A stretch of DNA of 64,000 bases from a virus (lineage: Duplodnaviria > Caudoviricetes): the IMG/VR virus record IMGVR_UViG_3300034198_027116, positions 1,766-65,765 of that record. One strand, given 5' to 3'. Positions 1,799 to 15,440 of this stretch are shown here, one piece after another. Within the stretch, counting starts at the first letter, position 1. The number at the start of each line of letters is the position of its first letter. The notes beneath the pieces are model-generated. The model was not told the origin of the DNA and did not search any database. It was given only the letters and a program-made list of their open reading frames with translations. The position numbers and the translations under genes are program-made.

Positions 1799-1872
1799 GA
1801 GGGCACTGCGCGGGGGCTTACTGCCCCCGCGCAACCCTTCGTAACGGTTAGGTAACGATGATGCACAGTACC

Positions 1873-1901
1873 TTTCATTTGGTTACACAGTATGGTAATC
1901 T
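1873..1901 (+). promoter_or_regulatory. early promoter P2
   Basis: TTTCAT-17 bp (ending CAGTATGG)-TAATCT. Confidence 0.75.
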
Positions 1902-1907
1902 TGAAGA

Positions 1908-2010
1908 GTGAGAAGTTTCCGTTATCGCTTTCGCAACCCGGCAGCGACAAGGGCAACTGATTGCCTCAGCTCGATTGACCCGTCGAGCGCCAATCTCTTA
2001 CAGGGTCAAC
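1908..2010 (+). ncRNA. candidate structured 5' leader with pseudoknot next to the RBS
   Basis: Hairpin GCTCGA/TCGAGC (1969-1988); its loop TTGACCC is complementary to GGGTCAA (2003-2009); additional small stems. Confidence 0.45.
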
Positions 2011-2026
2011 AGGAAGGATGGTTGTC

Positions 2027-2527
2027 ATGACCACCAGCAACGAGATCGTCCCCAGCAGCCTCACCGACATCGAGGGACTGGACACCAACGACCCGGCGGT
2101 TGCCGCGCTGCTCCAGCGCTACGCCGACCTGGAGGCCAAAGCGCAGCGCTCCCCGCGCCAGCGCAAGTCCTTCGGCGAGATGTGGAACAAGCGCATCGCC
2201 ACTCCCGTCGAGAAGATGCCGGCCGGCTACAAGATCATCGTCGAGTGGCTCATCGACGAGGGCCACATCGAGCAGGAGCAGGCCGGGCTGGTGTACGCCG
2301 CCTGCTGGTCGTACCAGTGCGCCGAGGGCAAGGAGGTCCGCCACGCCGGGGGCGCCAGCCGCGAGGCGCTGAAGGAGGCGCGGGAGGCGCTGGAGAAGGC
2401 CGCGCACTCGCGCATGACCAGCCAGCCCGAGGCCAACGCCGACGACGACACCGACGACGACGACATTGAGGACGAGGACATCGACCTCGACGACATCGAC
2501 GACGAGGACATCGACGACGAGGAGTAG
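2027..2527 (+). CDS. acidic-tailed early protein, paralog A
   Basis: AGGAAGG RBS; LDTNDPAVAALLQRYADLE N-terminal motif; D/E-rich C-terminal tail. Confidence 0.85.
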   Translation: MTTSNEIVPSSLTDIEGLDTNDPAVAALLQRYADLEAKAQRSPRQRKSFGEMWNKRIATPVEKMPAGYKIIVEWLIDEGHIEQEQAGLVYAACWSYQCAEGKEVRHAGGASREALKEAREALEKAAHSRMTSQPEANADDDTDDDDIEDEDIDLDDIDDEDIDDEE

Positions 2528-2534
2528 CGCAACC

Positions 2535-2561
2535 GGGGCGGCCGGCAACGCCGGCCGCCCC
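2535..2561 (+). terminator. GC hairpin abutting hammerhead 1
   Basis: GGGGCGGCCGGC-AAC-GCCGGCCGCCCC. Confidence 0.6.
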
Positions 2562-2619
2562 TGCGTCGCCCCGGGGTGGTGCCCGGCGGCCTGATGAGGC
2601 AGCCCTTGCCGAAACGCAG
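2561..2619 (+). ncRNA. type III hammerhead ribozyme (HHR1), predicted cleavage after C2567 (GUC)
   Basis: Stem III CUGCGU/ACGCAG; stem I GCC-CCGGG/CCCGG-c-GGC; core CUGAUGA (2591-2597); stem II GGCA/UGCC; GAAA (2611-2614). Confidence 0.9.
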
Positions 2620-2698
2620 CAACTACCAACCTCCTATGGCCTAGCCGATTGCCGTTTCTGACGGCAATCGGCTAGCGGCCAAGGAGAAGGGAGATGGA

Positions 2699-2929
2699 AT
2701 GGACCCGCAACTGCGAGCGTATTGGGAGATCGCCATTCTCAAGCGCACCTGCGCCGAGCACGCGCAACGCAGGATTCAGCTGGAGCAGAATCGCCTGACG
2801 ATCCGCTCCGCAACCGATCAGATCGGCTGCCGCATCTGGCACGTTCGCGCGCTCCAAGCGACGCGGCGTGCCATTCGTGATTGCGAGCGCGACATCAAGG
2901 AGTGCCTCGGATGCGCGTGCGGCGACTGA
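2699..2929 (+). CDS. hypothetical protein
   Basis: AAGGAGAAGGGAG RBS. Confidence 0.6.
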   Translation: MDPQLRAYWEIAILKRTCAEHAQRRIQLEQNRLTIRSATDQIGCRIWHVRALQATRRAIRDCERDIKECLGCACGD

Positions 2930-3111
2930 TCGAACTCGGACAACTCACGCGCGCAACGGAGCCGGCGCTGGTCGAGCTGTGGCAGCGTCAGCTGGAGTTG
3001 CCCTACCTCGGCGATGCCACGATCGGGATGCTGAAGCTCAGCAACGGCGCGTTGGCAACCAACGTCGAGGCAATCAACGCTCTGGTAAGAGGAGGTCGCA
3101 TCGATGCCTGA
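2911..3111 (+). CDS. hypothetical protein
   Basis: AAGGAG RBS before ATG 2911; fills the operon. Confidence 0.55.
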   Translation: MRVRRLIELGQLTRATEPALVELWQRQLELPYLGDATIGMLKLSNGALATNVEAINALVRGGRIDA

Positions 3112-3703
3112 CATCGAGCGCTGCAACTGCGGCGACGACTGGCGCCGCTGCGACTGCAGCTGCGCGCCAACCGAGAACCCGCAGTTCATCGGCGAGTACG
3201 CGGCCGGTCAGCTGGCCGAGGGCGACGTTGCCGCTCCGTGGATGTACCCGGAGACCGACATCCAGTGCTACCGCAGCGTGCCCTGGTTGTACGCGGACGG
3301 CAAGTTGGAGGACGTACTGCGGCACGACCTGCTGTACGTCCTCAACGACCACCGCGCAACCAGCCTCATCTGGCGTCGCAGGGAAACCTTCGACGGCGAT
3401 GTCTACTGGTTCGCAGCCATGCTGCCCGGCATCCACCACGTGACTGTCGAGCGCATCCCCTGCGTGGCCTACGTGTGGCACCGCATGGTTGACGTAGGCT
3501 TCAGCGGTGAGATCCGCAACCTGCACGAGACAAGCGGCCACGTGATGATGCTGGACGACAGCGAAGCCATCGCCAACGCGGCTGAGATCCAGGCGCAGCA
3601 CAACGCAAGAGCGCTGCCGTTGCTCAACGCAGCGACTGGCGAGGAGCGGCGTGCGCTGGACCGCGCAGCCTACCTCGCCGACATCCTCTCCGACACCAAC
3701 TAG
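3104..3703 (+). CDS. hypothetical protein with N-terminal Cys cluster
   Basis: GGAGG RBS; CNC...CDCSC. Confidence 0.8.
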   Translation: MPDIERCNCGDDWRRCDCSCAPTENPQFIGEYAAGQLAEGDVAAPWMYPETDIQCYRSVPWLYADGKLEDVLRHDLLYVLNDHRATSLIWRRRETFDGDVYWFAAMLPGIHHVTVERIPCVAYVWHRMVDVGFSGEIRNLHETSGHVMMLDDSEAIANAAEIQAQHNARALPLLNAATGEERRALDRAAYLADILSDTN

Positions 3704-3718
3704 AACAGGAGCAAGACT

Positions 3719-4009
3719 ATGCCCAAGAAGCCCCCGAAGCGCACTCGCGAGCGCGACACCCTCAACAAGGCAGCCAAGATGGAGCGCAACCGTTTCATCC
3801 GGGTGGTGCGCGGCGCACGCAAGGTCGGCAACCCCGATCCCGGCTACGGCGCGTGGCGCAACGAGTGGCTCGATGCCACCGAGCACAGCGGCAAGCGGGT
3901 CAACCGCGACGGCCGCATCCTGACCGACCACTCCCAGGTCGTCAGCCAGACGGAGCGGCTGCGCGCCGAGTTCCAGCGCTTCGCCGCACCGCACTTCGGC
4001 CTGCGCTAG
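3719..4009 (+). CDS. basic hypothetical protein
   Basis: AGGAG RBS. Confidence 0.75.
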   Translation: MPKKPPKRTRERDTLNKAAKMERNRFIRVVRGARKVGNPDPGYGAWRNEWLDATEHSGKRVNRDGRILTDHSQVVSQTERLRAEFQRFAAPHFGLR

Positions 4010-4030
4010 CTGCTCAAGCGCGACCCACCA

Positions 4031-4064
4031 GCCCCGGTAGACGGCAACGTCTACCGGGGCTTTC
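4031..4064 (+). terminator. intrinsic terminator-like hairpin
   Basis: GCCCCGGTAGACG-GCAA-CGTCTACCGGGGC followed by TTTCGTGCTTT. Confidence 0.7.
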
Positions 4065-4236
4065 GTGCTTTCTGGGTGCGCGCCGAGGGCTGCTGAGCCT
4101 GGTTGCCGCCCTCGCGCAATCGAAAACGCGCAGATTGCGGACAACGACGCATCCCGCTTTGCGAAAGTGAAAGCCGGTTGTCTTGGTGCGCGCAGTTGTT
4201 GCGTGCTTAGCCAGACGAAAGCAAGTCGTACAGGGA

Positions 4237-4265
4237 TTTCCTTTCTATCGACAGTATGGTATAAT
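4237..4265 (+). promoter_or_regulatory. early promoter P3
   Basis: TTTCCT-17 bp (ending CAGTATGG)-TATAAT. Confidence 0.85.
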
Positions 4266-4347
4266 CTAATCAGACAGAAGAAACGTCTCGCAGATGTACA
4301 ATCCCCGATGCATCCGCTATCACCAATCAGGGGAAGGGAGAACCATC

Positions 4348-4950
4348 ATGTCCAATGTCGACGAGATGCCGGATCTGGATACCAGCGATCCGGCGATCGC
4401 AGAACTGGTTGACCGGCTGGAAGACCTCGAACAGCAGGTGGAGGCCAAGGAGCAGGCCAAACTGGCAAAGGCGAACCGCAAGCGCCCGGGTCAGTCCGTG
4501 CCGCGCATGACGCTCGAGGAGCAGTTCGTCTACGACCTGGCCCTCACCGAGGTGGACGTGCCGGGTGGCCGTCGCCGCGATGCCATCGCGGACGGATACG
4601 CCAAGATCTACGACCTGCTCATGTCGCGCGTGGGCACCGAACTGGAGGAGTACGTCGAGGCCAACGGCTTCACGCTCCAGCTGCTCATGGCAACCATGAA
4701 GGTGTACTACTCCAAGGAGGGTCGCATCGTGCGCGGTGAGCAGCCGCGCGCCAAGGGTGACCAGACCCCGCAGCCGGCCGCTCCGATCGCCACTCCTGGT
4801 CCTACCACGGACGGCAACACGGAGGACGAGCAGCCGACTCAGGAGGCAGACGTTCTCGGCATCGACGCTGACGACATCGGCATCGACCTGAGCGACCTGG
4901 TCGGCGACGACGTGCTCGCCGGCTTCGTGTTCGGCGACGACGATGACTGA
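4348..4950 (+). CDS. acidic-tailed early protein, paralog B
   Basis: GGGAG RBS before ATG 4348; LDTSDPAIAELVDRLEDLE motif; acidic tail ending FGDDDD. Confidence 0.85.
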   Translation: MSNVDEMPDLDTSDPAIAELVDRLEDLEQQVEAKEQAKLAKANRKRPGQSVPRMTLEEQFVYDLALTEVDVPGGRRRDAIADGYAKIYDLLMSRVGTELEEYVEANGFTLQLLMATMKVYYSKEGRIVRGEQPRAKGDQTPQPAAPIATPGPTTDGNTEDEQPTQEADVLGIDADDIGIDLSDLVGDDVLAGFVFGDDDD

Positions 4951-4955
4951 TCGCT

Positions 4956-4986
4956 CGCAGCCGCCCGGCGTTGCCGGGCGGCTGTG
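4956..4986 (+). terminator. GC hairpin abutting hammerhead 2
   Basis: CGCAGCCGCCCGGC-GTT-GCCGGGCGGCTGTG. Confidence 0.6.
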
Positions 4987-5047
4987 GCTTCGCTGGAAAC
5001 TAATCCAGCCTGAACGAGCGCTGGGTAGTTACCAGCCGAAAAGCCAC
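4984..5047 (+). ncRNA. variant type III hammerhead ribozyme (HHR2), predicted cleavage after C4991 (UUC)
   Basis: Stem III GUGGCUU/AAGCCAC; stem I GCUGGA/UCCAGC; core CUGAACGA (one extra nt); stem II G(c)GCUGG/CCAGCC; GAA; loop I AACUA complementary to loop II UAGUU. Confidence 0.75.
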
Positions 5048-5156
5048 GCGTGGACGATCTGGTCGGTACGGGCACTGCCACCCCATTCCTTGGTGAACCC
5101 GTGCGCGTGTCATCGACTGCTATCCAGCGCTCGTTCATCAACCAACAGGAGGGGTT

Positions 5157-5237
5157 ATGCGAATCCAGATGCTGATGATCGGAATCGTGGTGCTAGCGTT
5201 GCTGATCGGCGCCGCAGCCAGCGGCGATAGCAAGTGA
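5157..5237 (+). CDS. 26-aa hydrophobic peptide
   Basis: AGGAGG RBS; MRIQMLMIGIVVLALLIGAAASGDSK; GTGA overlap with next gene. Confidence 0.55.
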   Translation: MRIQMLMIGIVVLALLIGAAASGDSK

Positions 5238-5488
5238 CGAGTGCGGAGATCGTTGCGGAGGAGGCGCCAACCGCTACGATAGAGCCAGTGGTAAAGGAAC
5301 TGGACTCGCGCATCGTCGATACCGACAAGGGTCGCTACAGCGTCAGGTTGCTGTGGCGCAGCACCGACAACACCCTAGTCGTCACGGCGTCAGTTATCGG
5401 TGGCGAGGAAGTCGCCACCCGCAAGGTACCCCGGCACATGGCCAGCGAGGCCATGCGACATCCGGTCGTGTACCTGAACCTCATCTGA
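5234..5488 (+). CDS. hypothetical protein
   Basis: ORF coupled to upstream peptide. Confidence 0.7.
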   Translation: MTSAEIVAEEAPTATIEPVVKELDSRIVDTDKGRYSVRLLWRSTDNTLVVTASVIGGEEVATRKVPRHMASEAMRHPVVYLNLI

Positions 5489-5509
5489 TTCGCTCAAAGG
5501 AGAGAAGCG

Positions 5510-5869
5510 ATGTCCGAGCAACTGCCCTATCGGGTAACCCTGCGCTTTGAGATCCCTGTCGACGTGACGGCAAGCACCGAGGCGTCTGCGGTTGACCGCG
5601 CAATGGCCGAGTGCTACAGGCAGCACCCCTCGCTGGAGTCTCGCGACTTCGAGCACGAGGTCGAGAGCAGCCTGTGCGCAGACTGCGGCAAGCAGTTTCC
5701 CTTCCAGCGCTTTGAGGCTGGCTACGAGAACTGTCTGGCCTGCAGCCAGGCCAACCCGATCGTTGACACGTACGTGCTCAGCGCCAGCGGGTTCAAGAAC
5801 AACGGCGCCGAGCTGGTGCGCGTCGAGCAGCACTTCAAGAACCAGCAGGACAATCACGTCCGCGGATAG
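5510..5869 (+). CDS. zinc-finger protein (CADC...CLAC, DksA/TraR-like spacing)
   Basis: AAGGAG RBS; C4 motif. Confidence 0.7.
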   Translation: MSEQLPYRVTLRFEIPVDVTASTEASAVDRAMAECYRQHPSLESRDFEHEVESSLCADCGKQFPFQRFEAGYENCLACSQANPIVDTYVLSASGFKNNGAELVRVEQHFKNQQDNHVRG

Positions 5870-12230: not shown

Positions 12231-13272
12231 TCTGACCCACCTCATCCCCGCCAAGCGCTTCGGCAGCAAGGCTACCGGCGGCTCGTACATCTCGCGCCGG
12301 CTGCCCGGCTTCGACCAGCCCGACACCGAGGTGCTCACCACCGCGGTCAAGGAGGGCTGGAACGTGCTCAAGCTGGGCCCAACCGGCAACGGCAAGACGT
12401 CGGCCATCCAGGCCACGTGTGCCGACAACGAGTGGCCGCTGGCCATCGTCAACTGCAACGGCATGACCACCGTCGAGGATCTGGTCGGCCAGGTGCTGCC
12501 CAGCGAGGGTGCTGATCGCGACTCGCAGGCGCTCATCGACCGCGTGGCGAAGGCCAAGCAGCAGACGCTGGTTTGCAAGGCGAAGTCCGACACGCAGGGC
12601 TTCTTCGCCGCGCAGCTCGAGCAGACGCGTGCGGAGCTGGAGCTGGAGGTCGCCTACAAGGAGGGCGCGTCCGGGCTGGAGTGGCACGACGGCGTGCTCG
12701 TCGCGCTGATGAAGGGCGACCCCAACTACGAGCACACCGTGCTGCTCGCTGACGAGATCAACTTCGGCCCAGCCAAGGTGCTGTCCGTGATCAACGGCGT
12801 CACCGACGATCGGCGGCAGCTGACCCTCGCCCAGCACAAGGGCGAGGTGGTCCAGGCACACGACGGGTTCGCGTTCATGGCAGCCATGAACCCCAACTAC
12901 GAGGGCACTCGTCCGCTGAACAAGGCGCTCCGCGACCGGTTCCACCTCACGCTGTCCTACGACTACGATGAGGAGATCGAGGCGCAGCTGATCCCGAACG
13001 ACAAGCTCCGCGGCCTCGCCAAGAAGCTGCGCGACATGCACGCCAAGGAGGAGTTGCTGACGCCGACTTCCACCCGCGGCCTACTTCACTTCATGGAGAT
13101 CGAACGCGTGCTGGGCACGACCGCAGCCATCGAGTCGTTCGTCGCCATGTTCGAGGAGGACGAGCGCGCTGCGGTGCGCGAGAGCATGATGCTTCATCTG
13201 CGCGGTGGCGCAGGCACGACCCGCGGCGGCATCGGCCGCACGGACATCAACGACCCGAACGAGGTGCAGTAG
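12223..13272 (+). CDS. MoxR/CbbQ/NorQ-like AAA+ ATPase
   Basis: Walker A GPTGNGKT, Walker B LLADEIN, AMNP, ALRDRF, STRGL. Confidence 0.92.
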   Translation: MPDLTHLIPAKRFGSKATGGSYISRRLPGFDQPDTEVLTTAVKEGWNVLKLGPTGNGKTSAIQATCADNEWPLAIVNCNGMTTVEDLVGQVLPSEGADRDSQALIDRVAKAKQQTLVCKAKSDTQGFFAAQLEQTRAELELEVAYKEGASGLEWHDGVLVALMKGDPNYEHTVLLADEINFGPAKVLSVINGVTDDRRQLTLAQHKGEVVQAHDGFAFMAAMNPNYEGTRPLNKALRDRFHLTLSYDYDEEIEAQLIPNDKLRGLAKKLRDMHAKEELLTPTSTRGLLHFMEIERVLGTTAAIESFVAMFEEDERAAVRESMMLHLRGGAGTTRGGIGRTDINDPNEVQ

Positions 13273-15440
13273 TGGAGGCCGCCGACCAGCAGGTGCACGG
13301 CAAGCGCCACAAGGGTATGACGTCGGCTGAGCGCGAGCACATGCGCCGCAACGCCATCTGCGCCGTGCTCCAAAAGACGGATCGCATCCTGCTGGGCGAC
13401 GTGGACCTGGCCGTGCAGCATCGCGACAACCCGGACATGCCGCCTGGCTGGACCACCGGCACCGAGATCGTCGTGAACATGCACGCGATCCCGTCCGTCA
13501 CCGACGAGGACTTGGTGGCCCTGTGGGGTCTCAACTACCACGAACTCGCCCACGTGATGCTCACCCCGCGCATCAAGGGCAAGTTCCGTGACCTCGTGCG
13601 CGAGCACGAGTTTCGAGTGGCCATGAACCTCGCGGAGGACTGGCGCATCGAGACCCAGTTCGCCTCTCTGTTCGAGGCCGCAGACCGCTACTTCAAGTGC
13701 ACGTTCAAGAAGCTGGTGATCGACGGCAACGACGAGACCAAGGCCATGACGTACCCGCTGGCAGTGGGTCGGGTGTACCTCGCCACCACTGACCGCGAGC
13801 GCTACAGACGGCGCTTCGTCCAGGAGCACGCCGGCAAGACGCCGCGCGACAGCTTCAACGAGGAGCAGATCCAGCAGATCGAGGGTGGCCCTAACGCGCA
13901 CCTGCTCGACCTCGATGCAGAGGCGTGGTCGCTCGCTCTGCGCGACCTGGCCCATCGGTACGTGAGCGTGTCGTGGTCGCGTGACGACCGCGAGCATAAC
14001 CAGAAGCTCATCGGCATCATCGAGCAGATCAAGATCCTCGTGCCCTGGGAAACCTCCAAGGACGCCGACAACCACGGCATGCCGGTGGCAGGTAACGAGA
14101 GCGGCGTGTACGGCCCAGACCTTCCCTCGTCTGGCCAGACCTCGCCAGAGCTGGAGAGCGATGCGGCCGAGGCTGCGATGCGCGTCGTCGCTCGCAGCGA
14201 GGAGGAGGCCGAGCGCATCGCCGAGATGCTGGAGGAGATCGAGAACGCCAGCCTCTCCGACGCACCCGATGACGGTGCAGGCAGCGCGCCCGACGGCACC
14301 GATGGAGATACCACGAGTGCACAGGGCGAGGGTGCCAGCGGCGAGAGCCGGGTGGGTGGCGCCCCGCAGGACCACAACGAGGTCATCGTCGATCCCAACC
14401 AGTCCATCTCTACCTCTGGCGGCGGCGGCAGCGTCGGCGGCTCTACGGTATCGGGCGGTGCTAGCGCCGGCGGTTACACCGGCGAGGCCGTGCGTACCGC
14501 TCAGCTCAGCGACGAGCAGCGCCAGCTCATCGACCGGATGTTCTCCAACGACGAGCAGTATGACGCGCTGCTCAGCGATGAGGTGCGCGACGAGATGGAG
14601 GGACGGGCGATCAAGCGCGATCTCCAGTCCATGCGTCGAGCTGTCTCCGAGGCGCTGGGCGAGGGCATGCACCTGCGCCCCGAGGACAACGGCTCCCTGA
14701 TGGTCGCTCCGAGCGACGTGCGCGTCGAGCGCAATCGCCTCGCGCGTGAACTCAAGCAGCTGCGCGCCTCGCTGGAGGGCACCTACGTCAACGAGCAGCC
14801 GAGCGGCAAGGTCCACGTGCGTTCGTGGATCAACGCTTCTCCCGCGCAGCGCACATCGGCGTTCCGCTCCTGGCTGCCCGACGAACTCGATGCCGCTGGC
14901 ACCGAGGTGGTCGGGCTCATCGACCGCTCTGGCTCGATGTCGGGCGTGAGCGATCACGCGTCTCAGGTGACCTGGGCGCTGGCGTCTGCCATCCAGGAAG
15001 CCGATGGCCACGTGACGGTGATCGGCTTTGCCGATCCTGGCAAGGACGAGGTGCTCATCGGCCGTGAGACGCGGATGGACAAGCATCGCTACGCCTCGTA
15101 CGGCACGTACGGCGGTACCACGATCGCCCCCGCGTTGGTCAAGGCGCGACAGGTGCTCGTCGCCTCGCCGATGCCTAACCGCCTGCTCTACATCGTGACG
15201 GACGGCGGCTGGTCGGACATGCCGCAGGCTGCCGACGAGCTGCGCAAGATCAACGCGGCCGGCATCGACACGGTGCTCGTGCTGCTCGGCATGCATCTCG
15301 AGCGTGAGACGCGCGGGTGCCGCCACGTCGTGCAGGCCAACGACGTAAGCCAGATGGGGCACGAACTCCAGAAGATCGTGCGCCGCATCAACCGCGACGT
15401 GGTGCGCCGCGTCGCCTCAGAGAGGGGACTGATGGTATGA
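13272..15440 (+). CDS. vWA-domain protein with N-terminal HEXXH metallopeptidase-like domain (CobT-like AAA partner)
   Basis: YHELAH; MIDAS DRSGSM, GGT, VTDG; acidic/Gly linker. Confidence 0.88.
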   Translation: MEAADQQVHGKRHKGMTSAEREHMRRNAICAVLQKTDRILLGDVDLAVQHRDNPDMPPGWTTGTEIVVNMHAIPSVTDEDLVALWGLNYHELAHVMLTPRIKGKFRDLVREHEFRVAMNLAEDWRIETQFASLFEAADRYFKCTFKKLVIDGNDETKAMTYPLAVGRVYLATTDRERYRRRFVQEHAGKTPRDSFNEEQIQQIEGGPNAHLLDLDAEAWSLALRDLAHRYVSVSWSRDDREHNQKLIGIIEQIKILVPWETSKDADNHGMPVAGNESGVYGPDLPSSGQTSPELESDAAEAAMRVVARSEEEAERIAEMLEEIENASLSDAPDDGAGSAPDGTDGDTTSAQGEGASGESRVGGAPQDHNEVIVDPNQSISTSGGGGSVGGSTVSGGASAGGYTGEAVRTAQLSDEQRQLIDRMFSNDEQYDALLSDEVRDEMEGRAIKRDLQSMRRAVSEALGEGMHLRPEDNGSLMVAPSDVRVERNRLARELKQLRASLEGTYVNEQPSGKVHVRSWINASPAQRTSAFRSWLPDELDAAGTEVVGLIDRSGSMSGVSDHASQVTWALASAIQEADGHVTVIGFADPGKDEVLIGRETRMDKHRYASYGTYGGTTIAPALVKARQVLVASPMPNRLLYIVTDGGWSDMPQAADELRKINAAGIDTVLVLLGMHLERETRGCRHVVQANDVSQMGHELQKIVRRINRDVVRRVASERGLMV

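What the first reader, a model, noticed from the sequence alone, without database searches (positions are those of the whole stretch)
5011..5137. Built-in antisense arm can sequester the HHR2 core: a ribozyme switch or product trap
UGAACGAGCGCUGGGUAGU (5011-5029: core, stem II 5' strand and loop II) pairs over 19 bp with GCUAUCCAGCGCUCGUUCA (5119-5137). The only non-Watson-Crick pairs are two G-U wobbles, which points to + strand RNA pairing. Inner stems (CACGCGU/GCGCGUG, UACGGG/CCCGUG) extend this into a ~127-nt rod that ends just before the next AGGAGG. The rod is mutually exclusive with the active ribozyme. Cleavage may therefore be limited to a co-transcriptional window, or the cleaved product may refold to block re-ligation and shield its 5' end, as with alternative folds in viroid-like RNAs.
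Basis: partly seen in the sequence, partly recalled or inferred. Interest (0 to 1): 0.82.

Follow-up and report, generated by a model that had tools for sequence, protein, structure and literature searches.

The report
Hammerhead ribozyme with built-in off-switch
A phage message carries a self-cutting RNA followed by a stretch that can fold back onto the cutter's core; a distant relative keeps both shapes through matching base changes, so the ribozyme probably has a built-in shut-off, though nothing has been tested at the bench.

Summary
5011-5029 pairs with 5119-5137 over 19 uninterrupted pairs, two of them G-U. This is the longest local + strand helix in the 64-kb window, and 0 of 10 shuffles reach 19 bp. 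It closes a 127-nt rod (-61.1 kcal/mol, z -4.98).

The 5' arm is the core, the stem II 5' strand and loop II of a type III hammerhead-like motif at 4984-5047. Its core, CUGAACGA, has one extra base after A6. Rfam does not detect it.

I found one independent relative, metagenome locus L005 (L004 is identical in this region). It keeps both folds:
- Hammerhead stems: 7 both-sided changes and no broken pair.
- Rod: 38 pairs, 6 both-sided changes, 76 of 76 cells paired. The arm follows the changes in stem II and loop II.

The rod is more stable than the hammerhead fold by 18.0 kcal/mol (window) and 4.2 kcal/mol (L005). It takes over only once the 3' arm is transcribed.

Best reading: a kinetic gate and lock on self-cleavage. 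Cleavage, kinetics and in-vivo effect are untested, and the comparison rests on two sequences. An earlier scan note (e1-5915387, unchecked) reports core-occluding tails in other phage hammerheads.

The parts
4958..4984 (+). GC-rich hairpin directly after the stop codon of the acidic-protein gene (4348-4950). It abuts the ribozyme and shares G4984 with stem III. It can extend to 4955-4987 (15 bp) when stem III is open. After cleavage it would be the 3'-terminal hairpin of the upstream mRNA.
   Evidence: Inverted repeat I2, 12 nt, 100% complementary. The 15-bp version is listed. L005 has an equivalent hairpin directly before its hammerhead.
4984..5047 (+). HHR2, a type III hammerhead-like motif. 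Stem III is 4984-4990 with 5041-5047. C17 is 4991, so the predicted cleavage lies between 4991 and 4992. Stem I is 4992-4996 with 5005-5009. The 8-nt core CUGAACGA is 5010-5017. Stem II is 5018 and 5020-5024 with 5032-5037, with C5019 bulged. GAA is 5038-5040.
   Evidence: All pairs are listed. My descriptor scan finds it as the only hit in the window and gives 0 hits in 30 shuffles. L005 keeps the same core and GAAA, with 4, 2 and 1 both-sided changes in stems III, I and II and no broken pair. There is no Rfam match.
5011..5029 (+). 5' arm of the rod: core bases U4 to A9, the stem II 5' strand and five bases of loop II.
5030..5118 (+). Interior of the rod. It holds the stem II 3' strand, GAAA and part of the stem III 3' strand, all re-paired, plus conserved inner hairpins (5045-5049 with 5104-5108, 5053-5055 with 5062-5064, 5066-5072 with 5098-5104, 5077-5080 with 5091-5094).
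   Evidence: MFE structure. The consensus with L005 has 20 inner pairs, 4 of them with both-sided changes and none broken.
5119..5137 (+). 3' antisense arm. It starts 71 nt after the end of the hammerhead; in L005 the gap is 73 nt.
   Evidence: In L005 the arm (1274-1292) has changed in step with stem II and loop II: 2 both-sided and 5 one-sided changes among 18 compared pairs, none broken.
5148..5237 (+). AGGAGG (5148-5153) and the first downstream gene, a 26-aa hydrophobic peptide (ATG 5157 to TGA 5237). Its stop overlaps the GTG start of the next gene at 5234.
   Evidence: Sequence.

Best explanation
The leader between the acidic-protein gene and the small-peptide operon is a two-state RNA. 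The hammerhead-like ribozyme (4984-5047) is transcribed first and can fold from local hairpins. The antisense arm appears only 71-90 nt later.

The proposed sequence of events is:
1. Once made, the arm invades through the unpaired core and displaces the stem II 3' strand, loop II and part of stem III.
2. The leader then collapses into the more stable rod, and the catalytic fold is permanently dismantled.
3. Self-cleavage is therefore confined to a short co-transcriptional window.

The switch then fixes the outcome for each molecule. A cut molecule loses its hold on the upstream mRNA, which ends in a GC hairpin with a 2',3'-cyclic phosphate, so it cannot re-ligate. It carries a 5'-OH end flush with the stem I hairpin, followed by the rod, 10 nt before the ribosome-binding site. 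An uncut molecule stays polycistronic.

Shown here: the complementarity, its rarity, conservation with compensatory change of both folds in one relative, the order of synthesis, and the thermodynamic preference for the rod. Inferred: that HHR2 cleaves, the speed of refolding, and any effect on mRNA fate.
For: - The helix is real and rare: 19 bp; the longest + strand local helix in the window, with 0 of 10 shuffles at 19 bp or more; rod z -4.98.
- L005 has the same design. Its arm helix is 19 bp with 3 G-U pairs. Among the 18 pairs compared, 2 changed on both sides, 5 changed on one side and 0 are broken.
- The whole rod has 38 consensus pairs, 6 with both-sided changes, and 76 of 76 cells paired. 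When the 3' partners are slid by 1-3 columns, 25-43% of cells pair and 0-1 pairs show both-sided changes.
- The hammerhead stems, which are not part of the rod's closing helix, covary independently: stem III 4 of 7, stem I 2 of 5 and stem II 1 of 6 pairs changed on both sides, none broken. The core, GAAA and a non-G at position 17 are kept.
- In the full-length leader the rod beats the enforced hammerhead fold by 18.0 kcal/mol (window) and 4.2 kcal/mol (L005).
- Prefix folding in L005: stems I, II and III hold at pair probabilities of 0.83, about 0.82 and about 0.96 up to prefix 1285. At prefix 1290 stems II and III fall to 0.01 and the rod reaches 0.87. In the window the rod rises from 0.00 at prefix 5125 to 0.84 at 5135.
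- The predicted 3' product folds as stem I (0.99 and 0.96) plus rod (0.95 and 1.00).
- The estimated barrier from 'hammerhead + inner hairpins + free arm' to the rod is 6.1 kcal/mol (window) and 10.4 kcal/mol (L005), so refolding should not be slow.
- The gap between hammerhead and arm is conserved: 71 nt and 73 nt.
- No reading frame is conserved across the element. A 10-nt indel shifts the frame between the two sequences.
- As a negative control, the 12 genome-contig hits to the core + GAAA + arm pattern extend the arm helix only 8-10 bp (8 are imposed by the pattern). None of the 12 has hammerhead stems I and III.
Against: - Only two independent sequences exist. L004 equals L005 in this region.
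- The first 10 pairs of the arm helix are invariant and carry no covariation information.
- The structure tested was derived from the same two sequences.
- HHR2 is not detected by any Rfam hammerhead model.
- Its core has an extra base after A6. Perreault et al. (PMC3088659, section 8) report low activity for a natural insertion after A6. A slow ribozyme with a window of a few seconds would cut few molecules.
- In the window, the isolated HHR2 has a nested competitor hairpin at -33.9 kcal/mol, against -25.2 for the hammerhead secondary structure. The cause is that stems I and II have the same sequence and loops I and II are complementary. For the same reason, stems I and II show probability 0.00 in all window prefixes. 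Pseudoknots and Mg2+ are not modelled.
- The window's - strand folds as well as its + strand.
- HHR1, in the paralogous cassette, has a long downstream hairpin that does not invade the ribozyme. A downstream hairpin may therefore have a job of its own.
- No RNA data were found.
Confidence: 0.55

Rival explanations
1. The rod is mainly a 5'-leader element of the downstream operon, for example a stabilising 5' structure or a double-strand RNase processing site. Its overlap with the ribozyme only recycles a spent ribozyme into that structure. It does not limit or tune cleavage, because cleavage is finished before the arm matters.
For: - The HHR1 cassette also has a long, very stable hairpin (16 uninterrupted pairs, 2641-2675) between the ribozyme and the ribosome-binding site, and it does not touch the ribozyme.
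- The rod stops 10 nt before AGGAGG and leaves it free.
- The engineered RiboJ part (hammerhead + hairpin + RBS) raises mRNA and protein levels (PMC6206723, passages read).
Against: - A stabilising hairpin would not need to pair with the catalytic core. Here the arm tracks the changes in stem II and loop II in the relative.
- The computed barrier to invasion is low.
- The core variant is of a kind reported as slow (PMC3088659, section 8), so cleavage is unlikely to finish before the arm is made.
Confidence: 0.2
2. HHR2 is a decayed, inactive hammerhead. Only the rod is functional, and the hammerhead-like features are a relic.
For: - There is no Rfam hit even at E up to 10.
- The core has 8 nt, with an insertion after A6.
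- The conserved core bases lie within the rod's 5' arm, so their conservation could be due to the rod.
- In the window the hammerhead fold is 8.7 kcal/mol less stable than a nested competitor.
Against: - Stems I and III lie outside the rod's closing helix, yet both are kept through 6 both-sided changes with no broken pair.
- GAAA, the A15.1-U16.1 pair and a non-G at position 17 are kept.
- In L005 the isolated motif folds as a hammerhead at its MFE.
- The descriptor finds 0 such motifs in 30 shuffles of the window.
Confidence: 0.12
3. The inverted repeat acts on DNA, as a protein-binding palindrome or cruciform, or it is a chance or duplication product with no RNA role.
For: The window's - strand folds as well by energy as its + strand.
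Against: - The arms are 89 nt apart and pair through G-U at different positions in the two relatives. These would be A-C mismatches on the other strand and in DNA.
- In L005 the - strand folds much worse: -51.8 (z -2.17) against -63.4 (z -4.21).
- The interior of the rod covaries as RNA.
- None of 10 shuffles gives a helix of 19 bp or more.
Confidence: 0.03

Closest known systems
Intergenic hammerhead ribozymes of phages and prophages, including natural core variants (Perreault et al. 2011, PMC3088659; sections 6, 8, 11 and passages read)
   Same: Both are intergenic in a phage early-gene block, between short genes. Both suggest processing of a polycistronic transcript. Loop I and loop II are complementary. 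The extra base after A6 matches the position of the natural 'A6a' insertion described there.
   Different: That paper describes no conserved downstream strand that pairs with the core. It only speculates that slower phage variants might be activated by conditions or signals. I could not see its supplementary figures (S6, S7), which show the variant sequences.
Downstream attenuator and flanking-sequence alternative folds of the HDV ribozymes (as summarised in PMC4615214; passages read)
   Same: A sequence outside the ribozyme pairs with ribozyme strands. The result is a rod-like fold that excludes the active fold and turns self-cleavage off after a co-transcriptional opportunity. The alternative pairings are conserved.
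   Different: HDV has a different ribozyme class and a circular RNA replicon whose rod is the genome itself. Here the element is a linear mRNA leader of a dsDNA phage, and the arm lies 71 nt downstream.
Alternative structures that attenuate hammerhead self-cleavage in satellite RNAs of luteoviruses (Miller and Silver 1991; Song et al. 1999). I saw these only as entries in the reference lists of PMC6155905 and PMC6765202; the papers were not read.
   Same: A hammerhead whose own RNA offers a competing pairing that lowers self-cleavage.
   Different: Those are rolling-circle satellite RNAs. By my recall the competing pairing is a short loop-loop or tertiary interaction, not a 19-bp antisense arm. 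I did not check this here.
RiboJ, an engineered insulator made of the sTRSV hammerhead, a 23-nt hairpin and an RBS (PMC6206723; passages read)
   Same: The order of parts is the same: self-cleaving hammerhead, then a hairpin, then the ribosome-binding site. The leader is cut off and a structured 5' end remains.
   Different: RiboJ is synthetic. I read nothing there saying its hairpin pairs with the ribozyme. Here the hairpin's closing helix is built from the ribozyme's own core and stem II.
Scan note e1-5915387: 'core-clamp' tails in phage type II hammerheads (an AI note on other DNA, not checked by me)
   Same: A tail that can fold back on the catalytic core of a phage hammerhead, said to covary.
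   Different: As described, that tail is a short palindrome next to the core of canonical type II ribozymes. Here the arm is 19 nt, lies 71 nt downstream, and closes a 127-nt rod on a type III variant.

Membership tests
Hammerhead ribozyme, type III (Rfam RF00008, clan CL00010) | Three helices around one junction in the order III-I-II-III, with stems I and II closed by loops | tested here: met
   Stem III has 7 bp, stem I 5 bp and stem II 6 bp with one bulge. It is the only descriptor hit in the window, with 0 hits in 30 shuffles.
Hammerhead ribozyme, type III (Rfam RF00008, clan CL00010) | Canonical 7-nt core strand CUGANGA | tested here: not met
   The strand is CUGAACGA, 8 nt, in both the window and L005. 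It has one extra base after A6. A natural insertion at that place was reported as active but slow (PMC3088659, section 8). I therefore call it a hammerhead-like variant, not a canonical member.
Hammerhead ribozyme, type III (Rfam RF00008, clan CL00010) | GAAA strand, A15.1-U16.1 pair, and a non-G at position 17 | tested here: met
   GAAA is at 5038-5041, U4990 pairs with A5041, and C4991 is position 17. In L005 position 17 is U, within GUU.
Hammerhead ribozyme, type III (Rfam RF00008, clan CL00010) | Score at or above the Rfam gathering threshold | tested here: not met
   There are 0 matches at gathering score in the window. No hammerhead family appears among the 9 matches at E up to 10 in 4700-5400. 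RF00008 gives 0 matches at E up to 10 in the whole record. L004 and L005 give 0 matches at E up to 0.1.
Hammerhead ribozyme, type III (Rfam RF00008, clan CL00010) | Stems kept by compensatory change in relatives | tested here: met
   There are 7 both-sided changes among the 18 compared stem pairs and none is broken, but the comparison has only two sequences.
Hammerhead ribozyme, type III (Rfam RF00008, clan CL00010) | Tertiary contact between loops I and II | tested here: inconclusive
   In the window, a 5-bp loop-loop duplex is possible between loop I (AAACUAAU) and loop II (GUAGUUA), -3.2 kcal/mol as a free duplex. In L005, 3-4 complementary bases can be seen by eye in the strings printed. 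Neither contact was modelled.
Hammerhead ribozyme, type III (Rfam RF00008, clan CL00010) | Site-specific self-cleavage | not testable with these tools
   No RNA run holds the stretch. Only DNA contigs were laid.
Ribozyme attenuator or alternative-fold control (HDV attenuator, satellite-RNA hammerheads) | A flanking strand pairs with catalytic-core or helix strands, so the active and alternative folds exclude each other | tested here: met
   The arm 5119-5137 pairs with core bases U4-A9, the stem II 5' strand and loop II. The rod also re-pairs 5033-5049.
Ribozyme attenuator or alternative-fold control (HDV attenuator, satellite-RNA hammerheads) | The alternative pairing is conserved and covaries | tested here: met
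   with two sequences.
Ribozyme attenuator or alternative-fold control (HDV attenuator, satellite-RNA hammerheads) | The alternative fold lowers cleavage in experiments | not testable with these tools
   This needs transcription and cleavage assays.
Ribozyme attenuator or alternative-fold control (HDV attenuator, satellite-RNA hammerheads) | Part of a circular, rolling-circle RNA replicon | tested here: not met
   The element lies between + strand genes of a 65.8-kb dsDNA virus record. It works like these systems but is not a member.
Intrinsic terminator | GC-rich hairpin followed by a U tract | tested here: not met
   The scan of 1800-5600 finds no terminator-like site at the rod. The rod is followed by UCAACCAACAGGAGG.

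The most novel reading that the evidence does not exclude
The leader is a true natural hammerhead switch. The choice between the active fold and the rod would not be fixed. It would be set by a signal such as RNA polymerase speed or pausing, temperature or Mg2+, or a phage or host factor. One candidate factor is the acidic protein encoded just upstream in both cassettes. Under this reading the phage decides conditionally whether its early message is split. In L005 the two states differ by only 4.2 kcal/mol before tertiary contacts are counted. With the hammerhead intact, the 3' arm has an alternative partner in the conserved ACGCGUGG-CGAUC block in both sequences, which could hold the arm back.
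Probability: 0.2. Interest if true: 0.85.

Novelty: new variant of a known kind. Interest (0 to 1): 0.62.

Why it matters
What phage and bacterial hammerheads are for is still called largely elusive (PMC6765202, section 13; PMC6155905, passage). Apart from glmS, natural self-cleaving ribozymes are generally treated as constitutive.

This locus offers a concrete, conserved second fold that switches a phage hammerhead off. The full anatomy is laid out in order: a 3'-protective hairpin, the ribozyme, a rod built from the ribozyme's own core, and the ribosome-binding site. That turns a vague idea ("processing of polycistronic mRNA") into a small set of clean experiments with truncations and compensatory mutants.

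If it holds, phages use the viroid and HDV trick of time-gated self-cleavage in ordinary mRNA. It would also be a natural counterpart of engineered insulators and ribozyme switches.

Tried and rejected
**Searches for more relatives**
- blastn (distant mode) of 4900-5250 against phage records: no match.
- tblastn of the acidic protein against phage records: no match.
- The search for related loci in viral contigs found no relative with P0001, with the 8-protein alignment A1, or with P0003.
- Exact and pattern scans of viral contigs all gave 0 hits: the 19-nt arm, core + stem II + GAAA, the inner-rod block, and core + GAAA + arm.
- The first genome contigs pattern was mis-specified. Its second gap of 40-70 was too short to match even the window, where the gap is 85. 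Its 0 hits mean nothing.
- The corrected pattern gave 12 hits, all judged chance: arm helices of 8-10 bp, and 0 of 12 with stems I and III.
- The metagenome scan found 2 loci (L004, L005) that are identical in the RNA region, so they count as one relative.
- The protein search found 7 proteins including the window's own.

**Sequencing runs**
- 3 DNA runs from one study were listed and no RNA holder was listed.
- The laid contigs are near-identical strains at low depth. No difference is listed inside 4984-5137, so they add no covariation and no information on RNA ends.

**Other checks**
- MAFFT + RNAalifold on the hammerhead alone recovered only stem II, because stems I and III are unalignable by sequence. 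I compared those stems position by position in a script instead.
- No conserved ORF crosses the element on either strand, so a coding explanation is rejected.
- No sigma-70-like promoter was found in 1800-5600. That scan does not cover other promoter types.
- HHR1 has no comparable antisense arm. The best duplex between its core and the downstream sequence is -23.7 kcal/mol and is discontinuous, against -37.7 for HHR2.
- A stochastic co-transcriptional folding simulation was not attempted. It would be too slow in Python on one CPU, and no kinetic folding program is listed among the installed tools. I used prefix folding and findpath barriers instead. The first findpath run started from a constrained MFE with a different downstream fold and gave 19.8-28.9 kcal/mol (window) and 13.7 (L005). 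I replaced it with a start state that keeps the inner hairpins.

**Literature**
- Searches for a described attenuator of a phage hammerhead listed none.
- 'The case of the missing allosteric ribozymes' is cited in held papers but is not held, and I did not read it.
- Supplementary files were not opened. Figures S6 and S7 of PMC3088659 may show the A6a variant and its flanks.
Full report
**Setting.** The window is bases 1766-65765 of a 65,765-base virus record. All genes around the finding lie on the + strand:
- an acidic protein of no known family at 4348-4950 (no Pfam or PHROG hit);
- a 206-nt spacer;
- a 26-aa hydrophobic peptide at 5157-5237;
- two small genes after that.

One large protein has 26-29% identity to proteins of Gordonia and Brevibacterium phages. 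The host is therefore probably an actinobacterium, but this evidence is weak.

**The observation.**
- The repeat finder reports 5011-5028 with 5120-5137: 18 nt, 94% complementary.
- With U5029-G5119 the helix has 19 uninterrupted pairs. Two are G-U (G5025-U5123 and U5029-G5119) and the rest are Watson-Crick.
- The stretch 5011-5137 folds into the described rod at -61.1 kcal/mol, z -4.98, with 0 of 200 shuffles as good.
- I scanned the whole window for uninterrupted + strand helices (span up to 200 nt, at most 3 G-U). This is the longest of four helices of 15 bp or more, and 0 of 10 shuffles gave one of 19 bp or more.
- Two of the other three helices are the hairpins flanking the two ribozymes.

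**The ribozyme under the arm.** 4984-5047 has the full type III hammerhead layout:
- stem III, 7 bp, 4984-4990 with 5041-5047;
- C17 at 4991;
- stem I, 5 bp, 4992-4996 with 5005-5009;
- the core strand;
- stem II, with G5018-C5037, a bulged C5019 and 5 further pairs;
- GAA, followed by A15.1, which pairs with U16.1.

A simple descriptor finds it as the only hit in the window and gives none in 30 shuffles. It is not a canonical member, however. The core strand is CUGAACGA, one base longer than CUGANGA, and no Rfam hammerhead model reports it even at E up to 10. Perreault et al. describe a natural insertion after A6 ('A6a') with low activity (PMC3088659, section 8). I therefore treat HHR2 as a hammerhead-like variant of a kind already seen in nature. 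I expect it to be slow, and its activity is untested.

For comparison, HHR1 at 2561-2619 is canonical. Alone it folds as a hammerhead at its MFE. It scores 30.2 bits against Rfam Hammerhead_II, whose gathering score is 37.

**Relatives.** The acidic protein has only six relatives among 5.8 billion clustered proteins (7 hits including itself). One metagenome scan gave two loci, L004 and L005. They are identical in the RNA region, so they count as a single independent relative. The protein is 60% identical over the matched part, and the aligned spacers have 76% mean column identity.

L005 has the same order of parts: acidic protein, GC hairpin, hammerhead-like motif, rod, ribosome-binding site, a homologous 26-aa peptide, then homologues of the next genes.

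**Both folds are kept in the relative.**

Hammerhead fold:
- The core CUGAACGA, GAAA and a non-G at position 17 are retained.
- The stem sequences are largely different but still paired. Stem III has 4 of 7 pairs changed on both sides, stem I 2 of 5 and stem II 1 of 6, with none broken.
- The isolated L005 motif folds as a hammerhead at its MFE.

Rod fold:
- L005 again has a 19-bp closing helix (1164-1182 with 1274-1292), with three G-U pairs.
- Of the 18 positions comparable with the window, 11 are identical, 5 changed on one side through G-U, 2 changed on both sides and none is broken.
- All the changes lie where stem II and loop II differ between the two ribozymes, so the arm has followed the ribozyme.
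- Over the whole rod, RNAalifold gives 38 pairs, 6 with both-sided changes and none broken. The count of structure pairs finds 76 of 76 cells paired, against 25-43% when the 3' partners are slid by 1-3 columns. The structure was derived from these same sequences.

Strand and coding:
- In L005 the + strand folds at -63.4 (z -4.21) and the - strand at -51.8 (z -2.17). Together with the G-U pairs, this fixes the + strand.
- In the window alone the two strands are energetically equal.
- No reading frame is conserved across the element, because a 10-nt indel shifts it.

**Energetics and order of events.**
- In the full leader the rod fold is the MFE in both sequences. It beats the enforced hammerhead fold by 18.0 kcal/mol in the window and 4.2 kcal/mol in L005.
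- Folding growing prefixes shows that the rod cannot form until the 3' arm is out. In L005, stems I, II and III hold pair probabilities of 0.83, about 0.82 and about 0.96 up to prefix 1285. At prefix 1290, stems II and III fall to 0.01 and the rod reaches 0.87.
- In the window the rod goes from 0.00 at prefix 5125 to 0.84 at prefix 5135.
- The arm starts 71 nt (window) and 73 nt (L005) after the end of the ribozyme.
- I built a start state of hammerhead plus inner hairpins plus free arm. From it, the best direct path to the rod has a barrier of 6.1 kcal/mol (window) and 10.4 kcal/mol (L005). Pseudoknot and metal-ion stabilisation are not modelled. At face value, refolding takes from well under a second to some tens of seconds. 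That is no slower than cleavage by a weak hammerhead.
- The predicted 3' product folds as a flush 5' stem I hairpin plus the rod (stem I 0.99 and 0.96; rod 0.95 and 1.00).
- The rod also re-pairs 5033-5049, which includes part of the stem III 3' strand. The upstream GC hairpin can extend from 12 to 15 pairs over 4985-4987. Both changes would help release the 5' product.

**Interpretation.** The data show a selected two-state leader in which the second state dismantles the ribozyme. The most direct physical consequence is a time gate. The ribozyme can cut only until the arm arrives. After that the outcome is frozen: cut molecules cannot re-ligate, and they carry a 5'-OH, highly structured leader that ends 10 nt before AGGAGG, while uncut molecules stay polycistronic. 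These data cannot rank them.

I give this reading 0.55. The rivals are:
- a leader structure with its own function that merely recycles the spent ribozyme (0.2). This is favoured by the non-invading hairpin behind HHR1;
- a dead ribozyme (0.12). This is disfavoured by covariation of stems I and III;
- a DNA-level or chance repeat (0.03).

**Weak points.**
- The comparison has two sequences.
- The conserved half of the arm helix is uninformative for covariation.
- The core variant is probably slow.
- In the window, stems I and II have the same sequence and loops I and II are complementary. A nested hairpin (-33.9 kcal/mol) therefore outcompetes the hammerhead secondary structure (-25.2) in nearest-neighbour terms. 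This competitor is not conserved in L005. By my inference, co-transcriptional formation of the two local hairpins should still favour the hammerhead topology first.
- No RNA run was listed among the runs that hold this stretch, so there are no expression or RNA-end data.

**Comparison with what is known.**
- Phage hammerheads between short genes, with loop-loop contacts and rare core variants, are known. Their role is unsettled (PMC3088659, sections 6, 8 and 11; PMC6765202, section 13).
- Ribozyme shut-off by a flanking complementary strand is established for HDV (attenuator and Alt structures, PMC4615214, passages). It is cited for satellite-RNA hammerheads, which I saw only in reference lists.
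- The order of parts resembles the engineered RiboJ insulator (PMC6206723, passages).
- My three literature searches listed no paper describing a conserved antisense attenuator of a hammerhead in a DNA phage message.
- An unchecked note of this scan (e1-5915387) reports short core-occluding tails in other phage hammerheads, so the principle may be wider.

I class the finding as a new variant of a known kind.

Noticed in passing
window 2527-2625: HHR1 (2561-2619) is a canonical type III hammerhead and folds as one when isolated (-27.2 kcal/mol). In context, the upstream GC hairpin can extend (2527-2531 with 2562-2566) over the stem III 5' strand, and that fold is 5.0 kcal/mol more stable than the hammerhead fold. 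So the paralogous ribozyme may have an upstream competitor instead of a downstream one.
   Followed up: partly
window 2630-2687: A long hairpin lies between HHR1 and the next start codon. It has 16 uninterrupted pairs (2641-2656 with 2660-2675), the second-longest helix in the window. Its base pairs CCUCCU with the AAGGAG just upstream of the start codon, so it may mask a ribosome-binding site.
   Followed up: partly
window 5157-5237; L005 1318-1398: The first gene behind the rod is a conserved 26-aa hydrophobic peptide. Its stop overlaps the start of the next gene in the window. Its function is unknown.
   Followed up: partly
window 4992-5036: Stems I and II of HHR2 have the same sequence (GCUGG/CCAGC), and loops I and II are complementary over 5 bases. 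The same bases can therefore form either a pseudoknotted hammerhead or one long nested hairpin, at -33.9 against -25.2 kcal/mol. This does not occur in L005.
   Followed up: yes
window 2027-2527 and 4348-4950: The two acidic-tailed proteins in front of the two ribozymes are distant paralogues, 30% identical in alignment A1. They have no Pfam or PHROG family and only six relatives in the large protein collection.
   Followed up: partly
L004 1240-1455: A 71-aa ORF upstream of the acidic-protein gene in the relative resembles the C-terminal half of the window's 119-aa protein at 5510-5869. That protein has a weak DksA-like zinc-finger PHROG hit, E 0.0021. Gene order therefore differs between the two phages.
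   Followed up: no
window 13272-15440: A 722-aa protein with a C-terminal VWA domain (Pfam VWA_2, 28.3 bits). Its only phage-record matches are 16 Gordonia and Brevibacterium phages; the 12 listed are 26-29% identical. This is a weak hint at an actinobacterial host.
   Followed up: no
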